IMG/VR virus record: IMGVR_UViG_3300025502_000077
DNA: 36,107 bases
Origin: a virus
Strand: one strand, 5' to 3'
Positions 1 to 28,264 of the stretch are shown here, one piece after another. Under the pieces are notes generated by a model that saw only the letters and a program-made list of their open reading frames with translations, was not told the DNA's origin and searched no databases. Position numbers and translations under genes: made by a program. Position 1 is the stretch's first letter; every line of letters begins with the position of its first letter.

Positions 1-127
1 ACTAAGCTAGATGGCATTGAAGCCTTAGCAGATGTTACAGATGTAACCAACGTCACAGCCGCTGGTGCTTTGATGGACTCAGAGCTTACTAGCATTGCAA
101 GCGTTAAAGCTCTTGACCAAGGCGTAG
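1..127. repeat. Left copy of a 127-bp exact duplication (identical to 35981-36107); closure overlap of a circular or permuted phage genome
   Basis: Read directly: ACTAAGCTAGATGGCATTGAAGCC...CTTGACCAAGGCGTAG occurs at both window ends. Unique length is therefore 35,980 bp. Confidence 0.95.
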
Positions 128-1833
128 CTACTACTGATAGCCCTACGTTTGCGGCAATAGACGTTACCGGCACAGCCACGATGGATGGGCTTTTGGTTGA
201 AGGAGAAACAGCAGGTCAAGGGGCTTCTATAGAAGTACACGCAACTACTGCAGAGTTTGGTGATGCTCTTTTAATTGCAAAATCAGATAACGCAAGTGAT
301 TCTATTCATGCAGGAGTAAAGATTCAGGGAAGTAACAATCCTTTTTACATCTATCAATCTAACGGCTCGAACACTAATAAGTTAAGGTTTAATTATAATT
401 CGATGTCCGATGCAGGTGGTCAAATGACTATAGCCTCCAACGGAGACATCAGCTTCTACGAGGACACAGGCACAACGGCTAAGTTCTTCTGGGATGCGTC
501 TGCGGAGGCTTTGGGTATTGGCACTAGTAGTGTAGATAGTTTATTACACTTGTCAAAAGCCTCTGGTGGGTCAATTATACGATTAGAAAACCCAGATACT
601 GGTCTTTCTAGCTCCGAAATTGTTGGTAGAATTGAATTTGAAACTCAAGACAATGGCGGGGCTGGTGTTAATTCTTACATTCAAGCCGTTGGTCAAGGCT
701 CAGGAGGCGCTAATCAATTAGAGTTTGGTACAGGCACTAGCAACTCACCATCAACACGTTTAGTCATAGACGCTTCAGGCAACGTGTTGGTGGGTAAGTC
801 TGCCTCTAACACAGCTGTCGAAGGGTCTGAGCTTAGAGATGACGGGTCAATTGTAGCCACGCGGGCTGGTGGCATTGCGGCACTGCTTAACCGAACATCC
901 TCTGATGGTGAGATTTTGAGGATTGCAAAAGACGGCACAACTGTTGGGTCATGGCAGTCAAGAGCAGGGTTAGTTTCTACTATTATTCTCGACCCAAGAT
1001 CAAATGGCGCAGGACTCAGCGGCGGTGGCAATGCTATTTTCCCTACTAGCAATACAGGTGCTTTACTTAACGATCATGTGGACTTGGGGAACGCGGATTA
1101 TAAATTCAAAGACGCATACCTATCAGTCGGTTTACGCGGTGATACACTTAAATTTAGCTCAAATGCTGGCACAGAACGTATGCGCATAGACTCCAGCGGT
1201 CGATTAAACGTAGGCGTAACTAGCGGTTCCTTTAACGCTAGGATTACGTCTTACAGCTCATCTAGCTATACTTTTGAGTCTGTTAGAACAGGAACAGGGA
1301 ATGAAGGCCATGTTGTTTTTAAGAACGGCAATGGCGCTGTCGGCTTAATCACAACCAATGGCTCTGCTACCGCTTACGGCACTTCCTCAGACTATAGGCT
1401 AAAAGAAGACCTACAGCCAATGACAGGCTCTATTGACAGAGTTAAAGCATTGAAGCCTTGGAACTTTGCGTGGAAGATAGACGGCTCTCGCGTTGATGGC
1501 TTTATGGCTCACGAAGCCCAAGAGGTTGTTGCTAACTGCGCTACTGGCACTAAAGACGCTATGAAAGACGAAGAGTACGAAGTTACTGCGGCTACAGGCG
1601 ATATATACACAGCGGCGGTTGATGCCGTTGATGAGATTATCCATAGCTCAGACGTAGTTGAGCCTGAAACACTTGAGGAAGGTCAGCAATGGAGACAGAC
1701 CACTGCACAAGTAATGGACACTCGGAATATCCCCGATTATCAAGGCATAGACCAATCTAAACTAGTGCCTCTTTTAGTGTCGGCTTTACAAGAAGCTATC
1801 GCAAGAATTGAAACCTTAGAAGCAGGAGAATAA
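1..1833 (+). CDS. Tail fibre protein, C-terminal part (continuation of 35828-36107 across the junction; about 661 aa in total), with a C-terminal S74-type intramolecular chaperone domain
   Basis: The frame is open from nt 1 and in phase with the ATG at 35828 via the 35,980 offset. The body is Gly/Ser/Thr-rich and beta-like. The C-terminus SSDYRLKEDL...GFMAHEAQEV...LVPLLVSALQEAIARIETLE (nt 1384-1833) matches the SDxRxK auto-cleaving chaperone motif of endosialidase-type tail spikes. Confidence 0.85.
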   Translation, partial: TKLDGIEALADVTDVTNVTAAGALMDSELTSIASVKALDQGVATTDSPTFAAIDVTGTATMDGLLVEGETAGQGASIEVHATTAEFGDALLIAKSDNASDSIHAGVKIQGSNNPFYIYQSNGSNTNKLRFNYNSMSDAGGQMTIASNGDISFYEDTGTTAKFFWDASAEALGIGTSSVDSLLHLSKASGGSIIRLENPDTGLSSSEIVGRIEFETQDNGGAGVNSYIQAVGQGSGGANQLEFGTGTSNSPSTRLVIDASGNVLVGKSASNTAVEGSELRDDGSIVATRAGGIAALLNRTSSDGEILRIAKDGTTVGSWQSRAGLVSTIILDPRSNGAGLSGGGNAIFPTSNTGALLNDHVDLGNADYKFKDAYLSVGLRGDTLKFSSNAGTERMRIDSSGRLNVGVTSGSFNARITSYSSSSYTFESVRTGTGNEGHVVFKNGNGAVGLITTNGSATAYGTSSDYRLKEDLQPMTGSIDRVKALKPWNFAWKIDGSRVDGFMAHEAQEVVANCATGTKDAMKDEEYEVTAATGDIYTAAVDAVDEIIHSSDVVEPETLEEGQQWRQTTAQVMDTRNIPDYQGIDQSKLVPLLVSALQEAIARIETLEAGE

Positions 1834-1835
1834 TC

Positions 1836-2153
1836 ATGGCAGTAACTTGGACAATCGCAACACTAGAACGCAACACTTCAGACGATGGCGTAGTAATAGC
1901 ACACTGGCGAGCTAACGATAGCGAAGCAGTAGGCGAAGAAACATACTCAGGCAGCTCTTATGGCACTTGTGGCTTTACGCCTGACAGCACTGCTGACGGC
2001 TACACTGCCTATGCAGACATCACAGAAGCTCAGGCTATTGAGTGGGTCAAAGCATCTATGGGCGAAGAGGCTGTTGAAGCTCTTGAGTCTAGCATTGCTG
2101 CTCAGATCGAAGAGTCTAAAGCACCAGCAACAGCCGCTGGCGTACCTTGGTGA
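1836..2153 (+). CDS. Hypothetical protein (105 aa), fibre-adjacent
   Basis: ATG 8 nt after an AGGAG; tightly packed after the fibre gene; acidic, no motif recognised. Confidence 0.6.
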   Translation: MAVTWTIATLERNTSDDGVVIAHWRANDSEAVGEETYSGSSYGTCGFTPDSTADGYTAYADITEAQAIEWVKASMGEEAVEALESSIAAQIEESKAPATAAGVPW

Positions 2154-2347
2154 TGGAGCTGCTTCTAAAGAGCTTAAAGTCTAAGACTGTACAGTTCAGT
2201 ATAGCCCTCGCAGTCCTGAGTATCCTTCAGGGCTACGTTGGGTTCTTACCCGTGTCACCAGCAGGTCAGGCGGCGGTAGGTTGTGTCATAGCTTCCTGCG
2301 TCACTGTGTTGCGCTTTGTAACTACCACGGGTATAGCTGACAAGTAA
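2153..2347 (+). CDS. Small two-TMD membrane protein, class II holin-like (64 aa)
   Basis: The ATG overlaps the upstream stop (TGATG); the track start at 2147 is a TTG. The N-terminal LKSLKSKT is followed by two hydrophobic helices and ...VLRFVTT, a pattern I associate with small proteobacterial phage holins. Confidence 0.45.
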   Translation: MELLLKSLKSKTVQFSIALAVLSILQGYVGFLPVSPAGQAAVGCVIASCVTVLRFVTTTGIADK

Positions 2348-2370
2348 AGTTAACCAAAAGGTGCTGTAAT

Positions 2371-2799
2371 ATGTTAGCAGAAATAGCCGCTTGTAACGCA
2401 GCCTTTGCCATTATTAAGACAGCATTAGCTAACGGGAAGGAGTTGTATGATTGTACTGACGCTACTAAGGATTATTTTGAAAACAAAAGCACCGTAGCTA
2501 AACGTGTAGCGTCCAAGGGCAAAAGCGACTTGGATGCTTTCATGGCTCTTGAGAAGATTAAAGAGCAAGAAGAATGGCTGAAGGAATATATGATATATGC
2601 TGGCAGGGCTGACATGTGGCCTGACTGGCTTAGGTTTCAGTCTGACTGTAAGCAACAAAGAGAAAGAGCTGCTAAGTTAGCTGTGCTTAAAAGACACAAT
2701 AATGTAAAGCTAATGAAACAATTTTTTATCTTTATTGGTGTAGCCTTTGCAGTAATACCTGTTTTTATCTACGCTTTAATTTACTTACTCAACAAATAG
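2371..2799 (+). CDS. Tail-anchored membrane protein (142 aa), unknown function
   Basis: GGTG RBS; soluble charged N-terminal ~115 aa, then a single C-terminal TMD (FFIFIGVAFAVIPVFIYALIYLL). Confidence 0.55.
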   Translation: MLAEIAACNAAFAIIKTALANGKELYDCTDATKDYFENKSTVAKRVASKGKSDLDAFMALEKIKEQEEWLKEYMIYAGRADMWPDWLRFQSDCKQQRERAAKLAVLKRHNNVKLMKQFFIFIGVAFAVIPVFIYALIYLLNK

Positions 2800-2811
2800 C
2801 AAGGGATTGTC

Positions 2812-2979
2812 ATGGTCGAAACAACAAAGGAAGTACTTGACGTAGCCGCAGCTTCTACCGCTGTACTTTCAATGGCTGCTTGGTTACCGCCAGCAGCTTC
2901 CATACTTACAATACTTTGGCTTGGTATTAGGATATATGAGTCAGATACTGTACAAAGTATACTAGGGCGTACAAAATGA
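2812..2979 (+). CDS. Small membrane protein (55 aa), holin/antiholin-like; not in the supplied ORF track
   Basis: Translated by hand: MVETTKEVLDVAAASTAVLSMAAWLPPAASILTILWLGIRIYESDTVQSILGRTK. AGGGA RBS. Its stop overlaps the next start (ATGA at 2976-2979). A hydrophobic core is followed by a charged tail. Confidence 0.45.
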   Translation: MVETTKEVLDVAAASTAVLSMAAWLPPAASILTILWLGIRIYESDTVQSILGRTK

Positions 2980-3353
2980 GCATATTGACTGCAATCCTTG
3001 GACCAGTAGCGGGTATAGCTAAGAGCTACCTAAACAACAAAGCTGAAGAAAAGCAAGCCGTACATCAGCGTAAGTTGTCAGTCATAGAGAACGACGCTAA
3101 CTGGGAAGCTAAGATGGCTGAAGCGTCTAAGGACTCCTGGAAGGATGAGTTCTGGACTATTGTTTTAGCTATCCCTATCTTCATGATTGGCTACGCTATT
3201 GCTGCTAATGATGTTACAATCATAGCTAGAGTAGCTACAGCTTTTGAAGCACTAGAAAAATTACCTGAGTGGTATCAATACCTGCTGTTTATAGCTATAT
3301 CATCTAGCTTCGGTATACGCGGAGTTAATAAAATAATGCAGATGAGGAAGTAA
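2976..3353 (+). CDS. Membrane protein resembling the '3-TM holin for gene-transfer release' family (125 aa)
   Basis: N-terminus ILGPVAGIAKSYL, then a charged helix (KAEEKQAV...), then W-rich hydrophobic segments. Family assignment is from memory of the architecture and is not verified. Confidence 0.5.
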   Translation: MSILTAILGPVAGIAKSYLNNKAEEKQAVHQRKLSVIENDANWEAKMAEASKDSWKDEFWTIVLAIPIFMIGYAIAANDVTIIARVATAFEALEKLPEWYQYLLFIAISSSFGIRGVNKIMQMRK

Positions 3354-3355
3354 GA

Positions 3356-6300
3356 ATGGGTCGTGGCAGAGGAAGACAAGAAGCAAGGCGACTTGCTGAA
3401 GAAGAAGCATTACGTAGACTAGCTGCTGGGACGGCTGTGCTGCCTCCTGTAACAGTTCTTCCTTTAGAAGCTCCAAGCACCGTAGCTAACCCTGTTAACT
3501 GGAAAAGCGCGGCTATTAACAAAGATGATAGTTATTTCTCTAGTCAATACGGTGTATATGGTTTAGACGCTCCTGATCCCGATAAAGAAAGCGAAACAGG
3601 TTCTATTGAGGCTGCTTTGTCTCGTTTAGCTAACGCGCCTCAAAGAGAAGCTAACTCTGCAATTTACAGCACGTTTACTGACGAAGAAAGAGTTCTCTCT
3701 ACGCAAACTAATCTTCTTAAAAAATACGGTATTACTTCTGCAAACATTGGTAATAAAGTTTTAACTGACGATCAGATGTTTGAGTTAACTTCTAAGTTAG
3801 ACAATGAAATTACAGACTGGCAGACAACTAACCTAAGCACTCTAGCGTCAGAAGATCCAGAAGCTTTTGCAGCAGAATACGGCAAGCTGTACGAAACATC
3901 ACAGATAAAGTTTTTAAGCTCCTTGTATGAGTCAGGCGCTTTAGATAAAGACGAATACTTAAACGCTTCTGCTCAGACTTTAATGGCAGGCGATAAATAT
4001 AATACAGATGTTTATATAATAGACAAAGGTAAATTGTACGCAGCTCCTTCTAACTCTGCAGGCAACCCTAATTTTTACAGTGAAGTTGTTTTGTTCCCTG
4101 ACCAAGCATCAGGCCAAAATCAATACAACACTTTTAACTATAAAATAGGAAGTCAGTCACCTACCTCTGATTTTGATGCGAGCGGTGTAACTAAGTTCTT
4201 AAATAGCGCTCCTATTAAGATGGCTGCTTCAATGTTGGGGTTACCTGGCGTTGCTGTTTTAACAGGCTTGAAAGCAGCTAACGGAGAGACTCTACACGCA
4301 GAAGACTGGGCTACTTTAGCTATAGCAGGTCTGGGAGAGGTGGCGCAGGCTAAAGGTTTTGATGCAGCAGAAGCAGGTTCTAAAGCAAACGTAGCTGGTA
4401 ACGCCGCTGTTGACTCTGCTATTGCGGAGTATAACGCATACGCTTCTGGGATGCCGGCTGGCACATTTATACCGCCGAATTACACTGCTGTATACGACGC
4501 AGCCTATAATTCTTCAATTGCAGCAAGTGGTGTTACAACTACTTTTATGGGAATTGATCTTGCTAAATTTGCAGAAAACGCTGATTTAAGCACTTCTGTA
4601 AGCCAGGATGTCTTAGACGCTGTCTCTGCTTTAGAAGATGCCGCTAAAGGTCAAGGAGACGGTGTTGTTTATAACTTTCTTGAGGATACAACAAACTCTT
4701 TAGGCGAAGACTTTAATGCTTCAAATATTGACCTTATAATAAGTGCTTTTGATACTGTTGTCAATGACAGGGTTGAAAGAGAAGCTAAAGCTGCTGAAGT
4801 TGCTAGGGTTGCTCAAGAAGCTAGAGTAGCAGAGGAAGCAAGAGTTGCTGAAGAAGCTAGAGTTGCTGAAGAAGCTAGAGTTGCTGCAGAAGCTAAAGCT
4901 GCAGAAGAAGCTAGAGTAGCAGAGGAAGCAAGAGTTGCTGAAGAAGCTAGAGTTGCTGCAGAAGCTAGAGCTGCAGAAGAAGCTAGAGTTATTAGGGACG
5001 CTGAAATAGCAGAAGAAGTTAGGGTTGCAGAAGTAGCGAGATTAGCTGAAGAAGCCGCTAAAGTTGAAAGAGAAGCCGCAGAAGAAGCTGCTAAATTAGC
5101 TGAAGAGGCTGCAAAAAAGGCTGAGGAAGAAGCTATAGCTAACGCTGAAGCAGAGAAACAAGCAGCCCTGGATCTAAAAGCTGCTGCAGAAGCTAAGGCA
5201 GCTCAAGAAGCCGCCGACAGAGCTGAAGCTGCTAGAGTAGAAGAAGCCAGGCTTGCCGAAGAAACAAGAGTTGCTGCAGAAGCTAAAGCTGCAGAAGAAG
5301 CTAGAGTAGCAGAGGAAGCAAGAGTTGCTGAAGAAGCTAGAGTTGCTGCTGAAGCTCAAGCTGCAGAGGAAGCTAGGGCTGCTCAAGAGAAAGCTGAAGA
5401 AGCTGCTAGAGTTGCTGCTGAAATAGCTAAAGCTGCTGAAGAAGAAGCCGCAGCAAACGCTGAAGCAGAGAGACAAGCTGTGTTAGATCTACAAGCAGAG
5501 GCAGACGCTAAGGCTGCTAGAGAAGCAGAAGCTAGAGCTGAAGCTGCCAGAGTAGAGGCTGCTAGAGTTGCTGAAGAAGCTAAAGCGGCTGCTGAGGCTA
5601 AAGCGGCTGCAGAAGCTAAGGCAGCCAAAGAAGCAGAGGAAAGAGCTACAGCCAAAGCTGCTGAAGAAGCGAGAGTTGCTGAAGAAGCTAGAGCTGCAAA
5701 AGAAGCTAAAGACGCCGCAGACGCTAAAGCTGCTGAAGAAGCTGCTAAGACAGCCGCTGAGGTTAAAGCTGCTGAGGAAGCTCAAGCCGCTGCTGACGCT
5801 AAAGCCGAAGAAGATAGAATAGCTGAGGAAGACAGAGTAGCAGAAGAAACTAGGCTTGCTAGAGTTGCTAAAGCTGCTGCAGACGCTCAAGATGCTGCTG
5901 ATGCTGTAGCTAAAGAAGAAGCTAGAGTAGCTAAGGAAGAAGCAGAAGAAGCTTCTAGAAGAGCTGCTGAGATTTCTAAAGCTGCTGAAGAAGAAGCTAA
6001 AGCAAACGCTGAAAAAGAGAAACAAGCAGCCCTAGACTTACAAGCTGAAGCAGACGCTAAGGCTGCTAGAGAAGCTGAAGCTAGAGCTGAAGCTGCTAGA
6101 GTTGAAGAGGTAAGAGTTGCTAAAGCTGCTGTTGATGCTGCTGAAGCTGCCAGAGTTGCAGAGGAAGCTAGAGTTGCACAGGCTGCTGCAGATGCTCAAG
6201 CCGTTACTGACGCTAGAGTTGCAGAAGAAGCTAGAGTTGCTGAAGAAGCTAGAGTTGCTGAAGAAGCTAGAGTTGCTCAAGAACTAGCTGACGCTCAAGT

Positions 6301-7396
6301 TGCTGAAGAAGCTAGAGTTGCTGAAGAAGCTAGAGTTGCTGAAGAAGCTAGAGTTGCTGAAGAAGCTAGAGTTGCTGAAGAAGCTAGAGTTGCTGAAGAA
6401 GAAGCTGCCGCTGCCGAAGTAACCATAACTGATCCAGCAACAGGCGAGGAGATAATAGCCACTCAGCCTGATCAAGTTGAAACAGAGCAGCCTCTGCCTG
6501 ACTTCGAGCTTGATGAAGAACCTATTGTCTTTGAACCACCTACGGACACTTCTGGAGGAGCAGCAGAAGGAGGAGCAAGTGCTGGAGGCGGGGCAGGTGC
6601 TGGTGGAGATGCAGGCGACAGTGCGCCAGTCTCTGATGACATAGTGTTAAGACAGGTGTACGAGGCCGTGTTAGCAGACGAGATTCCTATTGACGAGTAC
6701 ATTAGGATGGGAGGCAGGTTTGTCGATGAGCTACGAGCAGGAGTATCTTTAGAAGACGCTCAAGGTCCGTATGAAGAACCTATTATAGATGACACCCCTA
6801 TTGAGCTTGACAAGACTGGCGAGCCTCTAACTGAAGAAGGTCCGTTGTTCCCTAGCGACTTCTACGAAGATCCTACAGATTCTTCTGTAGGTTCTACAAT
6901 TGACTCAGATCCTGTAACAGTTCCAACAACAGGAACAGTAGACGAAGGTGTAGGCACAGGCGGTGTTGGTATGGATGGCTTAGACGGCCTTGATGGCACA
7001 GATGGTCTTGACGGTTTAGACGGTTTAGACGGCCTCGATGGCTTAGACGGCCTTGACGGAGCTGCTGGAGACCAAGGAGACCAAGGAGACCAAGGAGACC
7101 AAGGAGACCAAGGAGACCAAGGAGACCAAGGAGACCAAGGAGACCAAGGAGACCAAGGAGACCAAGGAGACCAAGGAGACACTGGCGAACAGGGGCTACA
7201 GGGCGAGAAAGGGGAACAAGGCATGATGTCACCTACTAGAACTACTGATATGGTGTTTGCAGACCTGTTTAAATCTAAAATAGACATTGGCAGTAACCAG
7301 GTAGTTTCTCCTTATGTACAGTTACAACAACGAGGCTTGCAAGCTCCTGCTCAGCAAGGAATGCTAACAAACTCTAACAATTTTAGAAGGCGATAA
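3356..7396 (+). CDS. 1346-aa hyper-repetitive structural-module protein: unassigned N-domain, ~550-aa Ala/Glu/Arg helical array, acidic linker, collagen-like (G-X-Y)29, short C-terminal domain
   Basis: Long uninterrupted ORF with a GAGGAA RBS 6 nt upstream. The coding frame is supported by non-repetitive flanks. It lies between the membrane-protein cluster and the tail-tubular genes. Confidence 0.9.
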   Translation: MGRGRGRQEARRLAEEEALRRLAAGTAVLPPVTVLPLEAPSTVANPVNWKSAAINKDDSYFSSQYGVYGLDAPDPDKESETGSIEAALSRLANAPQREANSAIYSTFTDEERVLSTQTNLLKKYGITSANIGNKVLTDDQMFELTSKLDNEITDWQTTNLSTLASEDPEAFAAEYGKLYETSQIKFLSSLYESGALDKDEYLNASAQTLMAGDKYNTDVYIIDKGKLYAAPSNSAGNPNFYSEVVLFPDQASGQNQYNTFNYKIGSQSPTSDFDASGVTKFLNSAPIKMAASMLGLPGVAVLTGLKAANGETLHAEDWATLAIAGLGEVAQAKGFDAAEAGSKANVAGNAAVDSAIAEYNAYASGMPAGTFIPPNYTAVYDAAYNSSIAASGVTTTFMGIDLAKFAENADLSTSVSQDVLDAVSALEDAAKGQGDGVVYNFLEDTTNSLGEDFNASNIDLIISAFDTVVNDRVEREAKAAEVARVAQEARVAEEARVAEEARVAEEARVAAEAKAAEEARVAEEARVAEEARVAAEARAAEEARVIRDAEIAEEVRVAEVARLAEEAAKVEREAAEEAAKLAEEAAKKAEEEAIANAEAEKQAALDLKAAAEAKAAQEAADRAEAARVEEARLAEETRVAAEAKAAEEARVAEEARVAEEARVAAEAQAAEEARAAQEKAEEAARVAAEIAKAAEEEAAANAEAERQAVLDLQAEADAKAAREAEARAEAARVEAARVAEEAKAAAEAKAAAEAKAAKEAEERATAKAAEEARVAEEARAAKEAKDAADAKAAEEAAKTAAEVKAAEEAQAAADAKAEEDRIAEEDRVAEETRLARVAKAAADAQDAADAVAKEEARVAKEEAEEASRRAAEISKAAEEEAKANAEKEKQAALDLQAEADAKAAREAEARAEAARVEEVRVAKAAVDAAEAARVAEEARVAQAAADAQAVTDARVAEEARVAEEARVAEEARVAQELADAQVAEEARVAEEARVAEEARVAEEARVAEEARVAEEEAAAAEVTITDPATGEEIIATQPDQVETEQPLPDFELDEEPIVFEPPTDTSGGAAEGGASAGGGAGAGGDAGDSAPVSDDIVLRQVYEAVLADEIPIDEYIRMGGRFVDELRAGVSLEDAQGPYEEPIIDDTPIELDKTGEPLTEEGPLFPSDFYEDPTDSSVGSTIDSDPVTVPTTGTVDEGVGTGGVGMDGLDGLDGTDGLDGLDGLDGLDGLDGLDGAAGDQGDQGDQGDQGDQGDQGDQGDQGDQGDQGDQGDQGDTGEQGLQGEKGEQGMMSPTRTTDMVFADLFKSKIDIGSNQVVSPYVQLQQRGLQAPAQQGMLTNSNNFRRR
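4771..6418 (+). repeat. Coding repeat array encoding the EEARVA-type helix (hexapeptide units, three larger super-repeats, long exact duplicates)
   Basis: There is an exact 83-nt duplicate at 4877-4959 and 5267-5349 (offset 390 nt). The block ...AEEEA(I/A/K)ANAE(A/K)E(K/R)QA(A/V)LDL(K/Q)A... recurs three times, at about 5116, 5440 and 5988. Confidence 0.9.
6218..6401 (+). repeat. 18-bp tandem repeats GTTGCTGAAGAAGCTAGA (3 copies at 6218-6271, first copy has one substitution; 5 perfect copies at 6299-6388, plus a partial copy)
   Basis: Counted directly in the sequence; each unit encodes VAEEAR. Confidence 0.9.
6959..7222 (+). repeat. Collagen-like G-X-Y tract (29 triplets), including a perfect 9-bp microsatellite GGAGACCAA x12 at 7067-7174 (GDQ)
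   Basis: Triplets read GGV GMD GLD GLD GTD (GLD)x6 GAA (GDQ)x12 GDT GEQ GLQ GEK GEQ. The GLD codons vary synonymously, whereas the GDQ units are nucleotide-identical. Confidence 0.9.
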
Positions 7397-7398
7397 TA

Positions 7399-8046
7399 AT
7401 GACATACCTACAATTAGTAAACAGTGTTCTACGGAGACTCAGAGAAGAAGAAGTAAGCACTGTAGGACAGACCAGCTATTCTAAGCTTGTTGGAGAGTTT
7501 ATTAATGATGCTAAGCGAACTGTAGAAGATACCTGGGACTGGTCAGCTTTACGAAGCACGTTAACTGTTACCACCACTCCTGATGTTTTTAACTACAACC
7601 TTACAGGCTCTCAAGACCGCATTAAAGTTCTTGACGTTGTTAATGACACTTCTGACTGGTTCATGGAGTATCGTGCAGCACACTGGATGACAGCAGCTTA
7701 CTTGATTGAGACTCCGCCTCTAGGCGCTCCTCAGTTCTATAGCTGGAATGGTATAGACACTAACGGCGACAGCGCTGTTGATGTCTACCCTGCTCCTAAC
7801 GGCGTGTACAACCTATACTTTAACGTGGTGCTGAGAACAGCAGATTTAGCAGAAGACACTGACAGGATGTTTATACCTTCTTCTCCTGTTATACAGCTGG
7901 CTACTGCACTAGGCGCTAGAGAGCGTGGAGAGACAGGCGGTACTTCTGCTTCTGAGTTGTTCTCACTGGCTGGTAGAACATTGTCAGACGCTGTAGCACT
8001 CGACGCTGCTAAACACCCTGAAGAGACTATTTGGACGACTGTATAA
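7399..8046 (+). CDS. Putative tail tubular protein A / adaptor-like protein (215 aa)
   Basis: Gene order (upstream of the nozzle-like and internal proteins). The N-terminus MTYLQLVNSVLRRLREE... resembles the N-terminal helix of podoviral gp11-type proteins. By-eye call only. Confidence 0.45.
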   Translation: MTYLQLVNSVLRRLREEEVSTVGQTSYSKLVGEFINDAKRTVEDTWDWSALRSTLTVTTTPDVFNYNLTGSQDRIKVLDVVNDTSDWFMEYRAAHWMTAAYLIETPPLGAPQFYSWNGIDTNGDSAVDVYPAPNGVYNLYFNVVLRTADLAEDTDRMFIPSSPVIQLATALGARERGETGGTSASELFSLAGRTLSDAVALDAAKHPEETIWTTV

Positions 8047-9590
8047 TGGCTGAGCAACTACAGAATATTACAATTGCAGCTCCAGGCTTCTTGGGTATAA
8101 ACACTCAAGACTCGCCTATTGGACTAGATCCTGCATATGCTTCTATTGCTGACAACTGTGTTATTGATCAGTTAGGTCGCGTAGGTGCTCGTCAGGGCTA
8201 CACAAAGATCACTACTAACGGTGGAGATGTCTTAGGCACTAGCAGAGGTATTGAGAGCGTATTTGAGTTTATCAGTGTAACTAACATAACTACTGTGTTC
8301 TCTGCAGGCAACAACAAGATCTTTACAGGCTCAACTACTTTAACAGAAGTGACACTGCCTGCTGGTTATACGATCAGCGACAACAACTGGAAGATTGTAT
8401 CTTTTAACAACGATGTTTACTTCTTCCAAAAAGGTCACGCACCTTTAGAGAGTGTTGGAGGGTCAACAACGCTTACGCTTTTAACAACTTCCGGTGGTAA
8501 TCAACCTCCACAAGGTAACGATGTACTTGCTGCTTATGGACGCCTGTGGTCGTGTGACGTTGTTAACAACAAGTACACAGTGTATTGGAGTTCGTTGCTT
8601 GCTGGCGATGATTGGCATGGTGGGTCTTCAGGTAGTATTAACTTAACTACAGTGTGGCCTAACGGGTACGATGAAGTGGTAGCTCTTGCTGAACACAACA
8701 ACTTCTTGCTAGTGTTCGGTAAAAGAAATGTATTAATCTTTACAGGTGCTCAGAGTCCTTCTTCAGACTTAACCTTACACGACACAGTTGAAGGTACAGG
8801 TTGTATAGCAAGAGATTCTATACAAAGTACAGGAACGGACTTGCTTTTTCTTTCTAATCGTGGTATAATGTCCCTAGGAAGGATAGTCCAGGAGAAGTCT
8901 CTACCTCTACGTGACGTAAGCATGAATGTCCGTAGTGACCTGCTGGCTGCTGTAGAAGAAGAAGCACACGCTAATGGTCATAGAGAAGAGATTAAATCTA
9001 TCTATAGCCCTGTCCATGCTTTCTACTTGCTGACGTTACCGTCCAGTAATATTGTTTATTGCTTTGATGTACGTCAGCCTTTAGAGAATGGATCGTTTCG
9101 TGTCACTACCTGGACAGCGTTAGAGCCTGTTGCGTTTACTGTGTTTGCTGATGACTCTTTGTACATGGGACGCAATGAAGGCATCATACGCTACGGTAGC
9201 TATCTTGACGACACGGCTAAATATCAGCTTCGTTACTTTAGTAACCCTAACGATTTCCAGAGTCCAGCTAACTTGAAGTTCTTGAAGAAGTTTAACTTGA
9301 CTATTATTGGAGGTCAAAGCACAGAGACTGTCTTAAACTGGGGTTATGATTACACAGAAAGCTACACAAAGCAAGCATTTATTTTTGGCAGCGGTGTACC
9401 TGCTGAGTACGGTATAGCAGAGTATAACACTACTGGCGAATACACAGGATCTGTTGTGGTTAACACACCTAAAGTAAACGCTTCAGGAAACGGTAATGTG
9501 CTGACAATAGGCATTGAAGCTCAAATTAACAACTCACCTTTTTCAATACAGAAAATTGACATACACGCTCTAGTAGGGAGAATGCTCTAA
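8046..9590 (+). CDS. Putative tail tubular protein B / nozzle-like protein (514 aa)
   Basis: The start is taken at the ATG overlapping the upstream stop (TAATG) rather than the track start at 8031. The N-terminus ...APGFLGINTQDSPIGLDP...N...D..GRVGARQG resembles the conserved N-terminal motif of gp12-type proteins. The body is beta-rich. Confidence 0.45.
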   Translation: MAEQLQNITIAAPGFLGINTQDSPIGLDPAYASIADNCVIDQLGRVGARQGYTKITTNGGDVLGTSRGIESVFEFISVTNITTVFSAGNNKIFTGSTTLTEVTLPAGYTISDNNWKIVSFNNDVYFFQKGHAPLESVGGSTTLTLLTTSGGNQPPQGNDVLAAYGRLWSCDVVNNKYTVYWSSLLAGDDWHGGSSGSINLTTVWPNGYDEVVALAEHNNFLLVFGKRNVLIFTGAQSPSSDLTLHDTVEGTGCIARDSIQSTGTDLLFLSNRGIMSLGRIVQEKSLPLRDVSMNVRSDLLAAVEEEAHANGHREEIKSIYSPVHAFYLLTLPSSNIVYCFDVRQPLENGSFRVTTWTALEPVAFTVFADDSLYMGRNEGIIRYGSYLDDTAKYQLRYFSNPNDFQSPANLKFLKKFNLTIIGGQSTETVLNWGYDYTESYTKQAFIFGSGVPAEYGIAEYNTTGEYTGSVVVNTPKVNASGNGNVLTIGIEAQINNSPFSIQKIDIHALVGRML

Positions 9591-9823
9591 TGTCCGATTA
9601 TACGAAAACCACTAACTTCGCAACTAAGGACTCTTTAGCTTCTGGCAACCCTGCTAAGATTGTGAAGGGTACTGAAATTAACACTGAGTTTAACAACATA
9701 CAGACCGCTGTTAACTCTAAAGCTAACTCAGCTAGTCCTACAATAACAGGAACAATGACTGCCGCTACTGTCAACGTAACTGGCACATTGACTGCTGACA
9801 CAATTACTGGAGGATCCTACTAA
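9590..9823 (+). CDS. 77-aa protein consisting only of a tail-fibre N-terminal (tail-attachment) type domain
   Basis: DYTKTTNFATKDSLASGNPAKIVKGTEINTEFNNIQTAVNSKA is the motif common at the N-termini of podovirus fibres. The protein ends ...TITGGSY. Confidence 0.55.
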   Translation: MSDYTKTTNFATKDSLASGNPAKIVKGTEINTEFNNIQTAVNSKANSASPTITGTMTAATVNVTGTLTADTITGGSY

Positions 9824-10782
9824 TGTCTTTATTTACAGGTAATAATATTTCAGACATGCTTGGAGCTGGTGGTGCTTATTACCTAGGCAATCAAGCTTCT
9901 GATATTGCTAGAGAAGGTGGCGATGTAGCGAGAAACTTAGCAAATGAAGCAGCTACTACTTCAAGAGCAGAGTCAGCTTTTCAGCCATACACTGTAACAA
10001 GCAACTTGGCTAACATAGGTACAACTGCTCAAGGTGGTTACAACCTCAACCTTTCACCTCAACAGCAACAGCTTCAAAACCAGCTTCTAGGGCAATCTCA
10101 GCAGTTGTTTGGACAGGTGGGTCAAGACCCCGCAGCTCGCGCACAAGGCATCTACGAGCAGATTAGGGCTACTCAGCAGCCTGGTGAAGAGAGAGACCGC
10201 TTAAAGATGCAAGAGAACTTGTTTGCAGGTGGTCGTGGTGGTATACAGACTGCACAGTATGGTGGTTCTCCAGAGCAGTTTGCTTATGAGCAGGCTAGAG
10301 CAGAGTCACAGAACACTGCTGCATTAGGCGCACGAGAGCGTGTGTTAGCAGAAGAAGCTCAAGCGTTGACCTCAGCTCAAGGTTTGATGGCTTCTGGTTA
10401 CAACCCACAACAGCAAGCTCTATCGCTTCTGGAAGGTAGTCAAATACCTGCTGGTTATGCTTCTGCTGGTCAACGCACAGGCGCTGAGCTAAGCAGTCAG
10501 TTACGTGGTAGAGGAATTGAGTCTTACGTACAAGGACAGGACTTAGGTAACAGAATTGATCTACAGACTCAAGACGCTATCTTAGGTCTATTGACGGGTC
10601 AGCAGATGTCTCCGCTGCAGCAAGCGCAGATAGCTGAGATCTATGCAGGTATGGGTCAAGAAGCGCCAGGTGGCGGTGGTCTTATTGGTAAAGGTTTTGA
10701 TTGGTTATTTGGAGGCAACGGCAACAGCGAGTATGGCAACATTGGCGATCCTTTTGCTGATAATTTTGGAGGTACGCAATAA
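9823..10782 (+). CDS. Gln/Gly-rich internal virion / ejection-type protein (319 aa)
   Basis: Position equivalent to T7 gp13/14; ATGA-type coupling with its neighbours; low-complexity Q/G/A composition. Confidence 0.5.
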   Translation: MSLFTGNNISDMLGAGGAYYLGNQASDIAREGGDVARNLANEAATTSRAESAFQPYTVTSNLANIGTTAQGGYNLNLSPQQQQLQNQLLGQSQQLFGQVGQDPAARAQGIYEQIRATQQPGEERDRLKMQENLFAGGRGGIQTAQYGGSPEQFAYEQARAESQNTAALGARERVLAEEAQALTSAQGLMASGYNPQQQALSLLEGSQIPAGYASAGQRTGAELSSQLRGRGIESYVQGQDLGNRIDLQTQDAILGLLTGQQMSPLQQAQIAEIYAGMGQEAPGGGGLIGKGFDWLFGGNGNSEYGNIGDPFADNFGGTQ

Positions 10783-12146
10783 TGGCTAACATAGATTACG
10801 CAGGTTTATTGACAGGCATAAGCGGTCAGAACCAACGACCAAGTCCGTTTACTTCTCCTTCAAGAGATCAACAGCTTCTAGGCTTTGCAGCTAAACAGAA
10901 CGAAGCATTGACTGGCCGCCTTGGTGGCATGTTTGGACTACAGCAGCAAGACCCTGTAGAGCTTGCTAAGACAAAGCTAGTGGGGCTAGATCCTACAAAC
11001 CCAGCAGATCAAGCACAGTTTATACAGCTGTTGAATATTGTTGATCCTGCGAAGGCTGCTCAGTTTAAACAGCAGTTGGATTCTAAAGCTACTTCGTTGA
11101 CTAAGAGTACAAATGATGCTACTACAGTGGCTGACGCATTGCCGGCACAGTACGCATCGTTAGCAAAAGCTGTTCGTAATAAAGTACCTGGCGCTCTTCA
11201 AAGAGCAGTTGAAATACTAGGAGCTGCTCCAACAAAACCAGAAGAAGACCCCGCTTTAGTTAAAGAGTATAGGTTTGCGAAAACACCTAAAGGAGGAAGT
11301 TTTGAAGGCACGTTACAAGACTGGGCAGAGCTTAAAAAAGCTAGAGGAACAGTTATAAAAACTACTCAAACTCCTGCAGAAAAAATGACAGAGAATAATT
11401 TAGAGCGTCAAGCAAAATATGTTGATATAACTGCACCTGTAGCTGCAACGGCTGTCACGGATAAGCAAGCAGCAAACGCTATACTGAATGAAGTAGAAAA
11501 AGGTTTTGACACAGGCATGGTTGCTAATTTTGTAGCTAACCAATCTAAAAATTTACAAGGTATTTTTCAACTAGCGGGCGTAGCTTATCCGGAATCTTTT
11601 TCTGAGAAAATTAAAGATCAAGCTGTTCTAAAGATTTTACAGAACGAAGCTATTATACCAATGATGGATGCGCAAGGTAAAGGATTTACAGATAAAGATT
11701 TAGAATATCAGCAGGACGTGCTACCTGGTTACACCCAGCCTTGGCAGTATAACGAAGCAGCGGCAACAATTAAGTTACATAAAGCTGTAAATCAGATTGA
11801 AGAAAACACTTTTGCTAATCAACGTGCTAACTTATCTGAAGTGACTCCATTAGACCATACTACTTTATGGGATGATTATTTAACTAAAATCCCTAGAAGT
11901 AAAATAGCAGCAGCTAAAAGAAACGGTATTGATTACAAAAGAATGGAAGTCATACAGGACAGTGCTAATCTTTCACAATACTGGGTAAAAGATAAGCCTA
12001 GAGGTTTTACCTTGTCGATCAAAGGCGAGAATAAAGATGTAACTTGGGCTGATATTAAAGACACTGCCGCAGCTAATGACATGAACATTAGAGAATTTTT
12101 AGCAGCTTATGAAAACCAAGGTTTAATTGTAAAAGGCGTTTACTAA
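10782..12146 (+). CDS. Internal virion / ejection-type protein (454 aa)
   Basis: Position equivalent to T7 gp15; translationally coupled; no catalytic motif recognised. Confidence 0.5.
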   Translation: MANIDYAGLLTGISGQNQRPSPFTSPSRDQQLLGFAAKQNEALTGRLGGMFGLQQQDPVELAKTKLVGLDPTNPADQAQFIQLLNIVDPAKAAQFKQQLDSKATSLTKSTNDATTVADALPAQYASLAKAVRNKVPGALQRAVEILGAAPTKPEEDPALVKEYRFAKTPKGGSFEGTLQDWAELKKARGTVIKTTQTPAEKMTENNLERQAKYVDITAPVAATAVTDKQAANAILNEVEKGFDTGMVANFVANQSKNLQGIFQLAGVAYPESFSEKIKDQAVLKILQNEAIIPMMDAQGKGFTDKDLEYQQDVLPGYTQPWQYNEAAATIKLHKAVNQIEENTFANQRANLSEVTPLDHTTLWDDYLTKIPRSKIAAAKRNGIDYKRMEVIQDSANLSQYWVKDKPRGFTLSIKGENKDVTWADIKDTAAANDMNIREFLAAYENQGLIVKGVY

Positions 12147-15099: not shown

Positions 15100-15133
15100 A
15101 AAAAGCCCTATAGAATCTCTCTATAGGGCTTTT
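15100..15133. terminator. Bidirectional rho-independent terminator between the convergent operons
   Basis: AAAAGCCCTATAGA-ATCTC-TCTATAGGGCTTTT: a 14-bp perfect stem (including A/T ends) that gives a U-tract on both strands. It sits between the stops at 15097 (+) and 15174 (-). Confidence 0.85.
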
Positions 15134-27883: not shown

Positions 27884-28264
27884 GTGTCTGAGAACAAAAG
27901 AGTAGGCAGGCCCTCAAAGAAGGATGTTTCATCTGTTAAGAAAGGTAACAGGAATTCTGTTGGTAGACCCAAAGGGGATGCTGCTACAATCAATGAGTAC
28001 AAAGCACGTATGCTTGCATCTCCTAAGAGTAGGAAGGTGTTAGACAGTATCCTCAATGCAGCTCTTGATGACGATCACAAGAACCAGGCAGCAGCATGGA
28101 AGTTGTGTATGGATCGTTTGTTACCTGTTAGCTATTTCGAGAAGGATAAGGCTGGAGGAGGCAGAGGCGCTATCAACATATCTATTACTGGTGTTGGTGG
28201 TGAGACTACTGTTATCTCAGGCGGTGAAGAAGACATAGAAGAGGGTAACTATTCAGATGTATGA
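27884..28264 (+). CDS. Putative small terminase / DNA-binding protein (126 aa, GTG start)
   Basis: Basic N-terminus with two GRP(S/K)K motifs, then ...AAWKLCMDRLLP, resembling DUF5681/TerS-like proteins. It lies upstream of TerL. AGAGG RBS. Confidence 0.45.
   Translation: MSENKRVGRPSKKDVSSVKKGNRNSVGRPKGDAATINEYKARMLASPKSRKVLDSILNAALDDDHKNQAAAWKLCMDRLLPVSYFEKDKAGGGRGAINISITGVGGETTVISGGEEDIEEGNYSDV

What the first reader, a model, noticed from the sequence alone, without database searches (positions are those of the whole stretch)
3356..7396. 1346-aa chimeric, hyper-repetitive protein occupying 11% of the genome, with an architecture I cannot match to a described phage protein class
Read from the translation, the protein has five parts:
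- About 470 aa of non-repetitive sequence with no motif I recognise. It starts with an Arg-rich MGRGRGRQEARR.
- About 549 aa of uninterrupted Ala/Glu/Arg/Lys/Val helix-forming repeats.
- A roughly 180-aa acidic, Pro/Gly-containing linker.
- 29 collagen-like G-X-Y triplets, which implies trimerisation.
- A 58-aa non-repetitive C-terminus ending NNFRRR.

The gene sits between four small membrane proteins and the tail-tubular genes, which is not the usual fibre or gp14-16 position. The helix composition resembles the periplasm-spanning domain II of TolA. Collagen tracts are known in some phage fibres.

Two competing inferences follow: a very long trimeric virion fibril, or an envelope-spanning ejection component. 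I cannot decide between them from sequence alone.
Basis: partly seen in the sequence, partly recalled or inferred. Interest (0 to 1): 0.8.

Follow-up and report, generated by a model that had tools for sequence, protein, structure and literature searches.

The report
Repeat-swollen orphan phage tail-module protein
This 1346-residue protein is a real, selected gene: an unusually expanded member of an undescribed protein family that one group of uncultured marine short-tailed phages always encodes just before their tail-adaptor gene, and whose long helical and collagen-like middle is a dispensable, length-variable spacer rather than a defining feature.

Summary
ORF 3356-7396 encodes 1346 aa in the five parts described, and independent metagenome assemblies recover it. 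It is under purifying selection.

It is not a chimera of unrelated parts. It belongs to a family of at least 41 members, typically 500-800 aa, fixed in the order 3-TM holin, this gene, SU10-type adaptor, nozzle.

The family blueprint has three elements:
- a folded alpha-helical N-domain with a conserved Gly/Ala-rich hairpin (ANGETLHAEDW);
- an interchangeable spacer;
- a tightly constrained C-terminal peptide (SPTRTTDxxF).

The spacer can be absent, made of 11-residue acidic helices, AEEARV helix of 196-550 aa, Glu-Pro repeats, (GX)n or GXY. So collagen, and the trimer inferred from it, is not conserved.

The N-domain has no match in Pfam, PHROGs, NCBIfam, PDB or BFVD. Function is unresolved.

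- I slightly favour a virion-borne, tape-measure-like tether that assists DNA ejection (0.35).
- An external whisker docked on the adaptor is nearly as likely (0.30).

It is an interesting orphan family. The repeats themselves are slippage-driven expansion of a tolerant linker.

The parts
3356..7396 (+). Whole ORF, 1346 aa (141 kDa, pI 4.2), stop included.
   Evidence: dN/dS is below 0.3. The RBS and coupling to both neighbours are shown.
3356..3499 (+). Arg-rich N-terminal helix plus an extended segment (aa 1-48). This segment is kept at 88% identity in P0004 although the rest of that protein's N-terminal half is replaced.
   Evidence: AF2 pLDDT is 76-97 for aa 1-40.
3695..4390 (+). Family-defining core (aa 114-345): a helical bundle, small beta hairpins and a hairpin motif.
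   Evidence: The profile search found 41 relatives matching this region. AF2 pLDDT is 85-95 for aa 81-280.
4196..4354 (+). Gly/Ala-rich amphipathic helix - ANGETLHAEDW loop - helix (aa 281-333). This is the most conserved motif of the family, yet its model confidence is low.
   Evidence: Kyte-Doolittle 19-residue maximum is 1.53 here and 1.89 in P0004. pLDDT is 40-52.
4769..6418 (+). A 550-aa Ala/Glu/Arg/Val/Lys hexad-repeat helix (18-bp units plus about 315-bp super-repeats). It would be about 82 nm if it forms one continuous alpha-helix.
   Evidence: Length varies from 0 to 550 aa among orthologues.
6419..6958 (+). Acidic Pro/Gly-containing linker (aa 1022-1201).
   Evidence: It is 92-93% conserved in L001 and L015 and replaced in L010.
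6635..6742 (+). Conserved helix-loop-helix mini-domain DDIVLRQVYEAVLADEIPIDEYIRMGGRFVDELRAG (aa 1094-1129) inside the linker.
   Evidence: It is shared with P0003, P0007, P0020 and L018. pLDDT is 78-94 in the P0003 model. In L010 and L025 an EF-hand-like loop replaces it; L020 has both a related module and an EF-hand-like loop.
6959..7228 (+). 30 GXY triplets (GLD, GDQ; aa 1202-1291). There is no Pro and the net charge is about -25. The tract would be about 26 nm if triple-helical.
   Evidence: Orthologues have (GX)n or interrupted GXY at this position.
7229..7393 (+). Conserved C-terminal module (aa 1292-1346): SPTRTTDMVFADLFKSKIDIG, then a Gln-rich tail ending QGMLTNSNNFRRR.
   Evidence: The motif [ST]RTT[DG]xxF occurs 55-75 aa from the end in nearly all complete family members. 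dN/dS is 0.05-0.16.
2976..3353 (+). Context: a 125-aa transmembrane protein (phrog_2524) immediately upstream. It is a GTA-type 3-TM holin homologue.
   Evidence: Counterparts in L030, L031, L038 and L040 hit PF11351. The gene lies next to endolysin-type genes in cultured phages.
7399..8046 (+). Context: head-to-tail adaptor (Pfam SU10_adaptor) immediately downstream, followed by the 519-aa nozzle candidate (8031-9590).
   Evidence: Synteny is conserved in L001, L002, L004-7, L015, L022, L025, L030, L038 and L040.

Best explanation
The ORF is a genuine late gene. It is the repeat-expanded member of an undescribed protein family. In one clade of uncultured marine podoviruses this family always sits, translationally coupled, between a 3-TM holin gene and the SU10-type adaptor and nozzle genes.

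**Blueprint**
- A folded alpha-helical N-domain carries a conserved Gly/Ala-rich amphipathic hairpin.
- Next comes a spacer whose chemistry and length are free.
- Last is a strongly constrained C-terminal peptide (SPTRTTDxxF...).

In this phage, slippage of 18-bp and 9-bp units has inflated the spacer to about 550 aa of charged single alpha-helix plus 30 GXY triplets.

**Proposed mechanism (inferred)**
The protein is carried in the virion and acts as a thin, tape-measure-like tether of the DNA-delivery machine.
- The C-terminal peptide is held by the portal/tail complex.
- The N-domain with its hairpin is delivered to the host envelope.
- The spacer only has to be extended and narrow enough to pass the tail channel, which is why any rod or disordered sequence of any length is tolerated.

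**Shown versus inferred**
- Shown: the gene is real and selected; family membership; conserved synteny; a swappable spacer; constrained ends; no known fold.
- Inferred: presence in the virion, internal location, which end is anchored, and membrane engagement.
For: **Family and blueprint**
- A profile search gave 41 relatives, mostly 500-800 aa. They share the core and the C-terminal motif.

**Spacer freedom**
- The helical region is 0, 196, 240, about 415, or 541-550 aa long in orthologues.
- Alternative spacers are 11-residue acidic repeats, AAQAEAERIAAEE, EPVEVE, (GX)n and (GDT)n.

**Constraint**
- dN/dS is 0.05-0.16 for the C-terminus, comparable to adaptor, nozzle and capsid protein (0.02-0.17), and 0.21-0.29 for the N-domain.

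**Tape-measure-like traits**
- The 11-residue repeat regions of at least 9 relatives hit tape-measure PHROGs (E about 1e-4 to 1e-10).
- The most conserved motif is a hydrophobic Gly/Ala hairpin.
- Most of the protein beyond the N-domain is predicted to be rod or disorder.

**Link to an ejection operon**
- Family member P0040 (library-wide E 1.3e-4) lies directly after a P22-gp10-type nozzle and a phrog_1276 gene.
- In phage DSL-LC04 that slot holds a 'tail tape measure protein', followed by 'DNA ejection' and 'DNA transfer' proteins.

**Against a fibre role**
- There is no beta-rich, variable receptor-binding end. The C-terminus is small and conserved.
- Two dedicated fibre genes exist (34799-35815, and about 35.8 kb-1833 with an S74 chaperone domain).
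Against: - The canonical ejection slot after nozzle and p77 is already filled by three proteins of typical sizes (319, 454 and 983 aa). This gene is separated from them by adaptor and nozzle.
- The window protein itself gives no tape-measure hit. The hits in relatives are to low-complexity repeats.
- The resemblance of TRTTDxxF to the TMP-type motif GTGTSDSIPAMLSDGEFV is not significant (hhalign E 0.066, probability 0.8%).
- The hairpin is only borderline hydrophobic (Kyte-Doolittle 1.53) and falls to 0.9-1.2 in some members.
- P0040 is a single case and lacks the C-terminal motif.
- The gene lies in the hypervariable block with fibre and lysis genes, and it evolves faster than core virion proteins. 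That pattern fits an exposed host-interaction protein equally well.
- Virion presence is untested.
Confidence: 0.35

Rival explanations
1. The protein is an external whisker or fibril. Its N-terminal 45 aa or so dock on the SU10-type adaptor, as SU10 gp12 and T7 gp17 do, or as T4 fibritin docks on the neck. The helix plus Gly-rich tract project a flexible filament that could exceed 100 nm. The conserved C-terminal module either nucleates oligomerisation or docks another fibre component.
For: - The N-terminal 44 aa are retained at 88% identity in P0004 while the rest of the N-terminal half is replaced.
- The gene is adjacent and translationally coupled to an adaptor of the type that carries a fibre dock in SU10.
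- It lies in the hypervariable fibre/lysis block, and the N-domain dN/dS is about 3-fold that of core virion proteins.
- The GXY tract matches collagen-like regions of 'tail fiber' PHROGs.
- EF-hand/dockerin-like Ca loops occur in variants.
- A free-standing appendage tolerates any length.
Against: - The distal end would be a 55-aa, highly conserved peptide rather than a variable receptor-binding domain.
- GXY is replaced by (GX)n in close orthologues, so no conserved triple helix exists.
- The helix has no coiled-coil periodicity and only 11.6% hydrophobic residues.
- The N-domain is a 280-470-aa alpha-helical domain with a hydrophobic hairpin, unlike known fibre anchors.
- The fibre roles appear covered by two other genes.
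- The PHROG fibre hits are purely compositional.
Confidence: 0.3
2. The protein is a non-virion factor: either a tail/neck assembly scaffold, or an envelope-directed accessory of the lysis cassette to which it is translationally coupled. One example of the latter would be a periplasm-spanning TolA/TonB-like rod acting with the holin.
For: - Holin followed by this gene, with start/stop overlap or near-abutment (0-3 nt gap), is conserved at about 20% identity.
- In DSL-LC04 and CRP-902 the slot between the holin and the tail genes holds the endolysin.
- Spacer types (Ala/Glu/Lys helix, Glu-Pro) mimic TolA domain II and the TonB spacer.
- Hardies et al. describe conserved non-structural genes next to tubular tail A in another podovirus group (PMC4819975).
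- The disorder-rich, motif-studded build resembles scaffolding or hub proteins.
Against: - No signal peptide or transmembrane anchor would take it to the periplasm.
- No muralytic or TolA/TonB terminal domain was found.
- P0040 occurs without a holin neighbour.
- 4 kb (11% of a 36-kb genome) is costly for a catalytic or chaperone role.
- An endolysin-like gene exists elsewhere (28257-28631).
Confidence: 0.15
3. The ORF is an artefact: a mis-assembled or non-coding repeat, or a pseudogene.
For: - Low-complexity DNA also opens spurious ORFs on the minus strand.
- In the 94%-identical contig L001 the gene is called as two ORFs of 395 and 798 aa.
Against: - Three independent assemblies give 541-550 aa of helix in frame.
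- All indels among orthologues preserve the frame.
- dN/dS is 0.05-0.29.
- The RBS and coupled neighbours are intact.
- The gene is conserved across a family.
Confidence: 0.02

Closest known systems
Siphovirus/myovirus tape measure proteins (e.g. lambda gpH, T5 pb2) and the 'tail tape measure protein' of podophage DSL-LC04
   Same: - Long, extended, largely helical proteins with internal tandem repeats and a Gly/Ala-rich hydrophobic segment.
- Repeat regions of at least 9 family members hit TMP PHROGs.
- Family member P0040 occupies the same slot as the DSL-LC04 protein.
   Different: - The window protein has no TMP hit.
- The host phage has no long tail and no chaperone gene pair.
- Spacer length is not constrained.
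- The C-terminal motif similarity is not significant.
- hhalign of the core against the DSL-LC04 protein is negative.
Podovirus ejection (internal virion) proteins: T7 gp14/15/16, P22 gp7/20/16, Pa223 gp53/54/56
   Same: Alpha-helical, virion-module, rapidly diverging proteins that must pass a narrow channel and engage the envelope.
   Different: - It is encoded upstream of the adaptor, not after the nozzle.
- There is no sequence or fold similarity.
- A three-gene set already occupies the canonical slot.
T4 fibritin (Wac) collar whiskers (from my own knowledge of T4)
   Same: - The layout is an anchor, then a long rod, then a small conserved C-terminal module.
- The gene lies between the fibre genes and the neck/adaptor genes.
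- The rod tolerates length changes.
   Different: - No heptad coiled coil.
- The N-domain is about 10 times larger.
- The rod can be entirely absent in orthologues.
- No sequence relationship was detected, and the foldon was not tested.
TolA domain II / ER-K single alpha-helices
   Same: Ala/Glu/Lys/Arg composition, dense i+3/i+4 ion pairs, no Pro or Gly, and no hydrophobic seam.
   Different: No N-terminal membrane anchor, no TolA domain III and no Pfam TolA hit. The repeat is a dispensable insert within a phage family.
Collagen-like tracts of phage fibres and bacterial Scl/Lcl adhesins
   Same: 30 uninterrupted GXY triplets. Pfam Collagen scores 46.8 bits, and the tract gives weak hits to SclA, Lcl and fibre PHROGs.
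   Different: - No Pro and no basic residues, with Asp in most triplets (23 of 30).
- It scores far below the NCBIfam cut-offs.
- The orthologous position is (GX)n, (GDT)n or interrupted GXY.

Membership tests
Collagen triple-helix repeat proteins (PF01391) | A long uninterrupted Gly-X-Y register | tested here: met
   30 triplets at aa 1202-1291. Pfam scores 46.8 bits against a cut-off of 27.2.
Collagen triple-helix repeat proteins (PF01391) | Helix-stabilising composition: Pro in X/Y, or balanced charge pairs | tested here: not met
   The 88-aa tract has no Pro, one Lys and a net charge of about -25.
Collagen triple-helix repeat proteins (PF01391) | The GXY register is conserved in orthologues | tested here: not met
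   L010-13 (90% N-domain identity), L018 and L022-25 carry (GX)n. L001, L009 and L014 have a GIG interruption.
Collagen triple-helix repeat proteins (PF01391) | Forms a trimer | not testable with these tools
   No multimer prediction or experiment was available.
TolA (domain II) / single alpha-helix rods | Ala/Glu/Lys/Arg helix with i+3/i+4 ion pairs and no heptad seam | tested here: met
   There are 94 i+3 and 81 i+4 pairs, a heptad moment of 0.04, 11.6% hydrophobic residues, and no Pro or Gly.
TolA (domain II) / single alpha-helix rods | N-terminal transmembrane anchor and C-terminal TolA domain III | tested here: not met
   There is no TM segment at the N-terminus and no TolA hit in Pfam or NCBIfam.
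Phage tail fibre / receptor-binding protein | Conserved N-terminal virion anchor followed by mosaic replacement | tested here: inconclusive
   One case: P0004 keeps aa 1-44 at 88% identity. This cannot be separated from a recombination breakpoint.
Phage tail fibre / receptor-binding protein | Variable, usually beta-rich distal receptor-binding domain | tested here: not met
   The C-terminus is 55 aa, motif-like and under strong constraint. The N-domain is alpha-helical.
Phage tail fibre / receptor-binding protein | Homology to fibre families outside low-complexity tracts | tested here: not met
   PHROG fibre hits cover only aa ~1180-1300. tblastn of the N-domain against 50,697 phage records gave no match.
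Tape measure proteins | Sequence match to TMP families | tested here: inconclusive
   The window protein has none. At least 9 relatives match through 11-residue repeats, E about 1e-4 to 1e-10.
Tape measure proteins | Conserved TMP C-terminal motif (GTxTSDSIPAMLSDGEFV type) | tested here: not met
   hhalign places TRTTDxxF on it, but with E 0.066 and probability 0.8%.
Tape measure proteins | Long-tail gene context (tube, chaperone frameshift pair) and length matched to the tail | tested here: not met
   The gene set is that of a podovirus. Length varies from 654 to 1354 aa among close relatives.
Podovirus ejection / internal virion proteins | Encoded in the operon directly downstream of the nozzle/needle | tested here: not met
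   The window gene is upstream of the adaptor. Only the distant member P0040 is in that slot.
Podovirus ejection / internal virion proteins | Present in the virion and released on DNA ejection | not testable with these tools
   This needs virion proteomics before and after ejection.
New family defined here (holin-adjacent, adaptor-proximal rod protein) | Core domain with the ...GG.S....A.K.A.GETLH..DWA.LA.AGL... hairpin | tested here: met
   aa 114-345. Library-wide profile hits run down to 1e-101, with alignments.
New family defined here (holin-adjacent, adaptor-proximal rod protein) | C-terminal [ST]RTT[DG]xxF motif 55-75 aa from the end | tested here: met
   The motif is at aa 1294-1301 and is present in nearly all complete members.
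New family defined here (holin-adjacent, adaptor-proximal rod protein) | Synteny: 3-TM holin, this gene, SU10_adaptor, then a ~510-520-aa nozzle | tested here: met
   Seen in the window and in L001, L002, L004-7, L015, L030, L038 and L040. In L022 and L025 the adaptor and nozzle matched but the holin did not.

The most novel reading that the evidence does not exclude
The family is a new class of podovirus virion component: a length-free molecular tether. In this phage it would be an ~80-nm single alpha-helix in series with an acidic, Pro-free collagen-like tract, together longer than the capsid is wide. It would link a conserved tail- or portal-bound C-terminal peptide to a membrane-active alpha-helical head domain of novel fold.

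It would act either as a fourth, non-canonical ejectosome element or as a 'fishing-line' whisker. It would also be a natural experiment showing that SAH, hendecad coil, Glu-Pro rod, (GX)n and GXY modules are functionally interchangeable.
Probability: 0.2. Interest if true: 0.75.

Novelty: new variant of a known kind. Interest (0 to 1): 0.5.

Why it matters
- **An unannotated conserved gene.** The clade is abundant in marine metagenomes: dozens of contigs from JGI, ENA, IMG/VR and GOS. It has no cultured member in the phage collection searched. This gene is one of its few conserved late genes without any annotation.
- **A defined target.** The work defines the family's blueprint, motifs and synteny. 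That gives annotators a handle and gives experimentalists a clear target for virion proteomics or cryo-ET.
- **A comparative series.** The orthologues share the same ends but differ in spacer: absent, 196, 240, about 415 or 550 aa of helix, and GXY versus (GX)n. This is a ready-made test of how much linker length and chemistry matter in a phage infection machine. It also tests whether long Ala/Glu/Arg helices behave as single alpha-helices.
- **A caution.** Eye-catching repeats and a Pfam collagen hit in one genome need not be the functional core of a protein.

Tried and rejected
- **Cultured relatives:** megablast of 20 kb against phages gave only a 77-bp hit to roseophage CRP-5. tblastn of the N-domain, P0012, P0020, P0040 and the L030 adaptor gave no match. 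The portal and nozzle reach only about 23-25% identity to HMO-2011-type phages, which lack a counterpart between capsid and adaptor genes.
- **Family libraries:** Pfam, PHROGs and NCBIfam gave nothing outside low-complexity regions.
- **PDB profile search:** nothing.
- **Structure models:** AF2 models of the N-domain and of the repeat-less orthologue P0003 searched with Foldseek against PDB and BFVD. Best E was 0.5 and TM about 0.1.
- **Word-indexed search with the core profile:** swamped, with only 4 hits.
- **Fusion clues:** the 4055-aa ORF in L027 and P0040 have no annotated domains. P0040 shows no similarity to the window's post-nozzle proteins.
- **Muralytic role for the N-domain:** considered because of its slot after the holin. 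Rejected because no fold or sequence support was found.
- **Transmembrane hairpin:** hydropathy is only borderline and not conserved.
- **Shared C-terminal DPF motif:** the motif appears in p319 and in family members, but the p319 orthologue in L001 lacks it. Dropped as evidence.
- **Acidity as an argument:** all virion proteins here have pI 4-6, so it is not informative.
- **HTVC010P as a model:** its gene order is different.

Full report

Yes. The ORF listing and translation give an ATG ORF at 3356-7396 (+) of 1346 aa.
- A GAGGA ribosome-binding site lies inside the last codons of the upstream gene. The adaptor gene's ATG follows the stop after 2 nt.
- The only convincing terminator in the first 16 kb is the bidirectional hairpin at 15101-15133, so the gene is embedded in the long late operon.
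- The window carries a 127-bp terminal overlap. It is therefore a circular assembly of about 35,980 bp, of which the gene is 11.2%.

The five segments are as described.
- aa 472-1021 are 40% Ala, 24% Glu, 10% Arg, 9% Val and 6% Lys, with no Pro and no Gly.
- The GXY run is 30 triplets (aa 1202-1291). Part of it is encoded by 12.7 perfect copies of GGAGACCAA.

The repeat is not an assembly artefact. IMG/VR contigs from two other samples (L009, L017) encode a 541-aa version in frame.

The ORF is a selected gene. Against four relatives the N-domain has dN/dS of 0.21-0.29 and the last 58 aa have 0.05-0.16. dS is like that of adaptor, nozzle and capsid genes.

**2. Genomic setting**

The window is a complete podovirus genome. 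In order it encodes:
- an endolysin-like gene, TerL and an SU10-type portal;
- a scaffold candidate and the capsid protein;
- an Ala/Ser/Thr-repeat fibre shaft (34799-35815);
- a fibre with an S74 chaperone domain that wraps the window ends;
- DUF7936 and four small transmembrane ORFs;
- the big gene;
- an SU10-type adaptor and a 519-aa nozzle candidate;
- a 77-aa protein, then proteins of 319, 454 and 983 aa;
- convergent replication genes.

The transmembrane protein immediately upstream (phrog_2524) has counterparts in relatives that hit Pfam GTA_holin_3TM. Its homologues in cultured phages sit beside endolysin-type genes. So the 'membrane proteins' are most simply a lysis cassette.

No cultured phage is close. 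The portal and nozzle reach only about 23-25% identity to HMO-2011-type phages, where capsid is followed directly by adaptor and nozzle.

**3. It belongs to a family**

- A word-indexed search with aa 1-475 found four relatives.
- A full HMMER scan of 1.84 billion representatives with their alignment found 41. Most are 500-800 aa.
- An IMG/VR scan added 19 loci.

All complete members share two features.
- A core equivalent to aa ~114-345. Its sharpest motif is a Gly/Ala-rich helix-loop-helix, ...GG.S....A.K.A.GETLH..DWA.LA.AGL...
- A C-terminal motif [ST]RTT[DG]xxF, 55-75 residues from the end.

Wherever enough contig is available, the order is holin_3TM, family member, SU10_adaptor, then a ~510-520-aa nozzle. 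Start and stop codons often overlap.

One divergent member, P0040 (1127 aa, no C-terminal motif), lies elsewhere. It sits directly after a P22-gp10-type nozzle and a phrog_1276 gene.

**4. The spectacular middle is a free spacer**

Among orthologues the Ala/Glu/Arg helix varies in length.

| Helix length (aa) | Where | N-domain identity |
|---|---|---|
| 541-550 | window, L009, L017 | 99% |
| about 415 | L001 | 94% |
| 240 | L010-13 | 90% |
| 196 | L014-16 | 87% |
| 0 | P0003, L018, L022-25 | about 46-51% |

- L020 uses a different repeat (AAQAEAERIAAEE) plus (EPVEVE)n and (GDT)n.
- P0004, P0012, P0013, P0016, P0017 and P0022 use 11-residue acidic repeats (VGDVIEDVAQ...).
- The Gly-rich tract is GXY here. 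It is GXY with a GIG interruption in L001, L009 and L014, and (GX)n in L010-13, L018 and L022-25. The collagen register, and hence the trimer inferred from it, is not a conserved property.
- The tract here has no Pro and is uniformly acidic.
- The helix has no heptad periodicity (moment 0.04), only 11.6% hydrophobic residues, and dense i+3/i+4 ion pairs. That is the signature of a single alpha-helix or TolA-II-like rod (about 82 nm if continuous), not a coiled coil.
- The 'linker' hides a conserved 36-aa helix-loop-helix (aa 1094-1129). It is confidently modelled in P0003. In L010 and L025 an EF-hand-like loop, DxNxDGxVxxxE, replaces it; L020 has both a related module and an EF-hand-like loop.

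**5. What the folded parts look like**

- AlphaFold2 with a 38-sequence alignment gives a confident helical bundle with small beta hairpins for aa ~10-40 and 81-280. Confidence is low for the conserved hairpin and for aa 334-471.
- The full-length model of P0003 shows the same N-domain, the mini-domain and C-terminal helices. Everything else is disordered.
- Foldseek against PDB and BFVD finds nothing (best E 0.5, TM about 0.1).
- A profile search of PDB sequences and Pfam, PHROGs and NCBIfam also find nothing beyond low-complexity matches.

**6. Function**

Three facts constrain it.
- The ends are conserved and the C-terminal peptide is as constrained as core virion proteins.
- The spacer may be any extended or disordered sequence of any length.
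- The gene is locked to the tail-adaptor genes in a late operon.

This describes a tether or rod with two functional ends.

*In favour of a virion-borne, tape-measure-like ejection accessory*
- The 11-residue repeat regions of at least 9 relatives hit tape-measure PHROGs (E about 1e-4 to 1e-10).
- The most conserved motif is a hydrophobic Gly/Ala hairpin.
- Rods and disorder can traverse a tail channel without unfolding.
- P0040 occupies the slot that in phage DSL-LC04 holds a 'tail tape measure protein' preceding 'DNA ejection' and 'DNA transfer' proteins.
- The protein lacks a variable receptor-binding end, and two fibre genes already exist.

*Against that reading*
- The canonical three-gene ejection slot after the nozzle is already filled.
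- The TMP hits are to low-complexity sequence.
- The apparent likeness of TRTTDxxF to the widespread GTGTSDSIPAMLSDGEFV motif (960 relatives) is not significant.
- The hairpin is only borderline hydrophobic.

*The external-whisker alternative* is nearly as good.
- The first 44 aa survive a cassette swap (P0004).
- SU10-type adaptors dock fibres through N-terminal peptides (PMC9509320).
- The gene lies in the hypervariable fibre/lysis block, and its N-domain evolves about 3-fold faster than core proteins.

*A non-virion assembly or lysis-linked role* remains possible because of the invariant coupling to the holin.

| Reading | Probability |
|---|---|
| Ejected tether | 0.35 |
| External whisker | 0.30 |
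| Non-virion factor | 0.15 |
| Artefact | 0.02 |
| Unassigned | remainder |

**7. Comparison with known systems and novelty**

- It works like a rod or tether protein of a phage infection apparatus. Fibritin, tape measure proteins and ejection proteins are the nearest analogies.
- It fails the defining tests for each (see the membership table), and its N-domain fold is unmatched.
- The family is therefore undescribed, but it fits a familiar kind of phage component.
- The features that drew attention are slippage-driven inflation of a tolerant linker.
- I rate it a new variant of a known kind, with interest 0.5. It is a good target for virion proteomics or cryo-ET and a neat natural linker-length series, but not yet evidence of a new mechanism.

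Noticed in passing
window 1-127 and 35981-36107: There is a 127-bp terminal direct overlap, so the window is a circular assembly of about 35,980 bp. The 'TTG' ORF at 70..1833 is really the 3' part of a fibre gene. That gene starts near 35.8 kb (MATKIVTKNSS...TAAQLVQGELAVNVADKRLY...) and wraps the window ends.
   Followed up: partly
window 2147-3353 (ORFs 2147-2347, 2371-2799, 2812-2979, 2976-3353): Four small transmembrane ORFs are embedded in the structural operon. The last one is a GTA-type 3-TM holin homologue (phrog_2524). It has homologues in 360 cultured phages, next to endolysin-type genes in the two examined. The window's endolysin-like gene is about 10.7 kb away on the circle (28257-28631), so the lysis functions are split.
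   Followed up: partly
window 34799-35815 and 9590-9823: The Ala/Ser/Thr 11-residue-repeat fibre shaft ends ...TTGTLNGGTY, and the 77-aa post-nozzle protein ends ...TGTLTADTITGGSY. This shared C-terminal motif could be a docking joint for the distal fibre protein at two sites on the tail.
   Followed up: no
L010, L020, L025 (orthologues), P0023: Some orthologues carry a canonical EF-hand/dockerin-like calcium loop (DANNDGVVTDAE, DMNNDGTVSTQE). In some it replaces the helix-loop-helix mini-domain found in the window protein; in others it sits beside it.
   Followed up: no
L020 (IMG/VR 3300031851_002225) 2919-6494: This orthologue has three further repeat types in one protein: (AAQAEAERIAAEE)n, a TonB-like (EPVEVE)n run of at least 20 units, and (GDT)n. 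The contig ends inside the gene.
   Followed up: no
L001 9816-13405: In the 94%-identical contig the gene is called as two ORFs (395 and 798 aa). The break is near aa 361-374. It may be a frameshift, an assembly error or a real split; this was not resolved.
   Followed up: no
L037 (phage DSL-LC04) 13035-15314: The C-terminal motif YPRKTGxIxGPGTGTSD[SD][IV]PAMLSDGEFVFTAKAVRxxGxGSRRxGAKRMYAxM is extremely conserved in 960 unnamed environmental proteins. It is what earns podoviral proteins the label 'tape measure'. Its function appears undescribed.
   Followed up: partly
window 9823-15097: The three post-nozzle proteins (319, 454 and 983 aa) have no hit in Pfam (319-aa protein not scanned), PHROGs or NCBIfam, and no recognisable muralytic domain. 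They are mosaic among close relatives: 300/506/653 aa in L001 and 647-654/414/703 aa in L004-L007.
   Followed up: partly
L027 3888-16055: An uninterrupted reading frame of 4055 codons in an IMG/VR contig gives a weak match (38% over about 50 aa) to the GETLH hairpin region. It contains a 684-aa Ala/Glu/Lys/Arg-rich stretch. It has no Pfam or PHROG hits.
   Followed up: partly
window 10747-10782 (C-terminus of the 319-aa protein): The only DPF tripeptide in the scanned proteins of the window (22 proteins, 7356 aa; the minus-strand replication genes were not included) is GDPFADNF, at the C-terminus of the first post-nozzle protein. It resembles the DPFAxxF endings of many family members. The orthologue in L001 lacks it.
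   Followed up: partly
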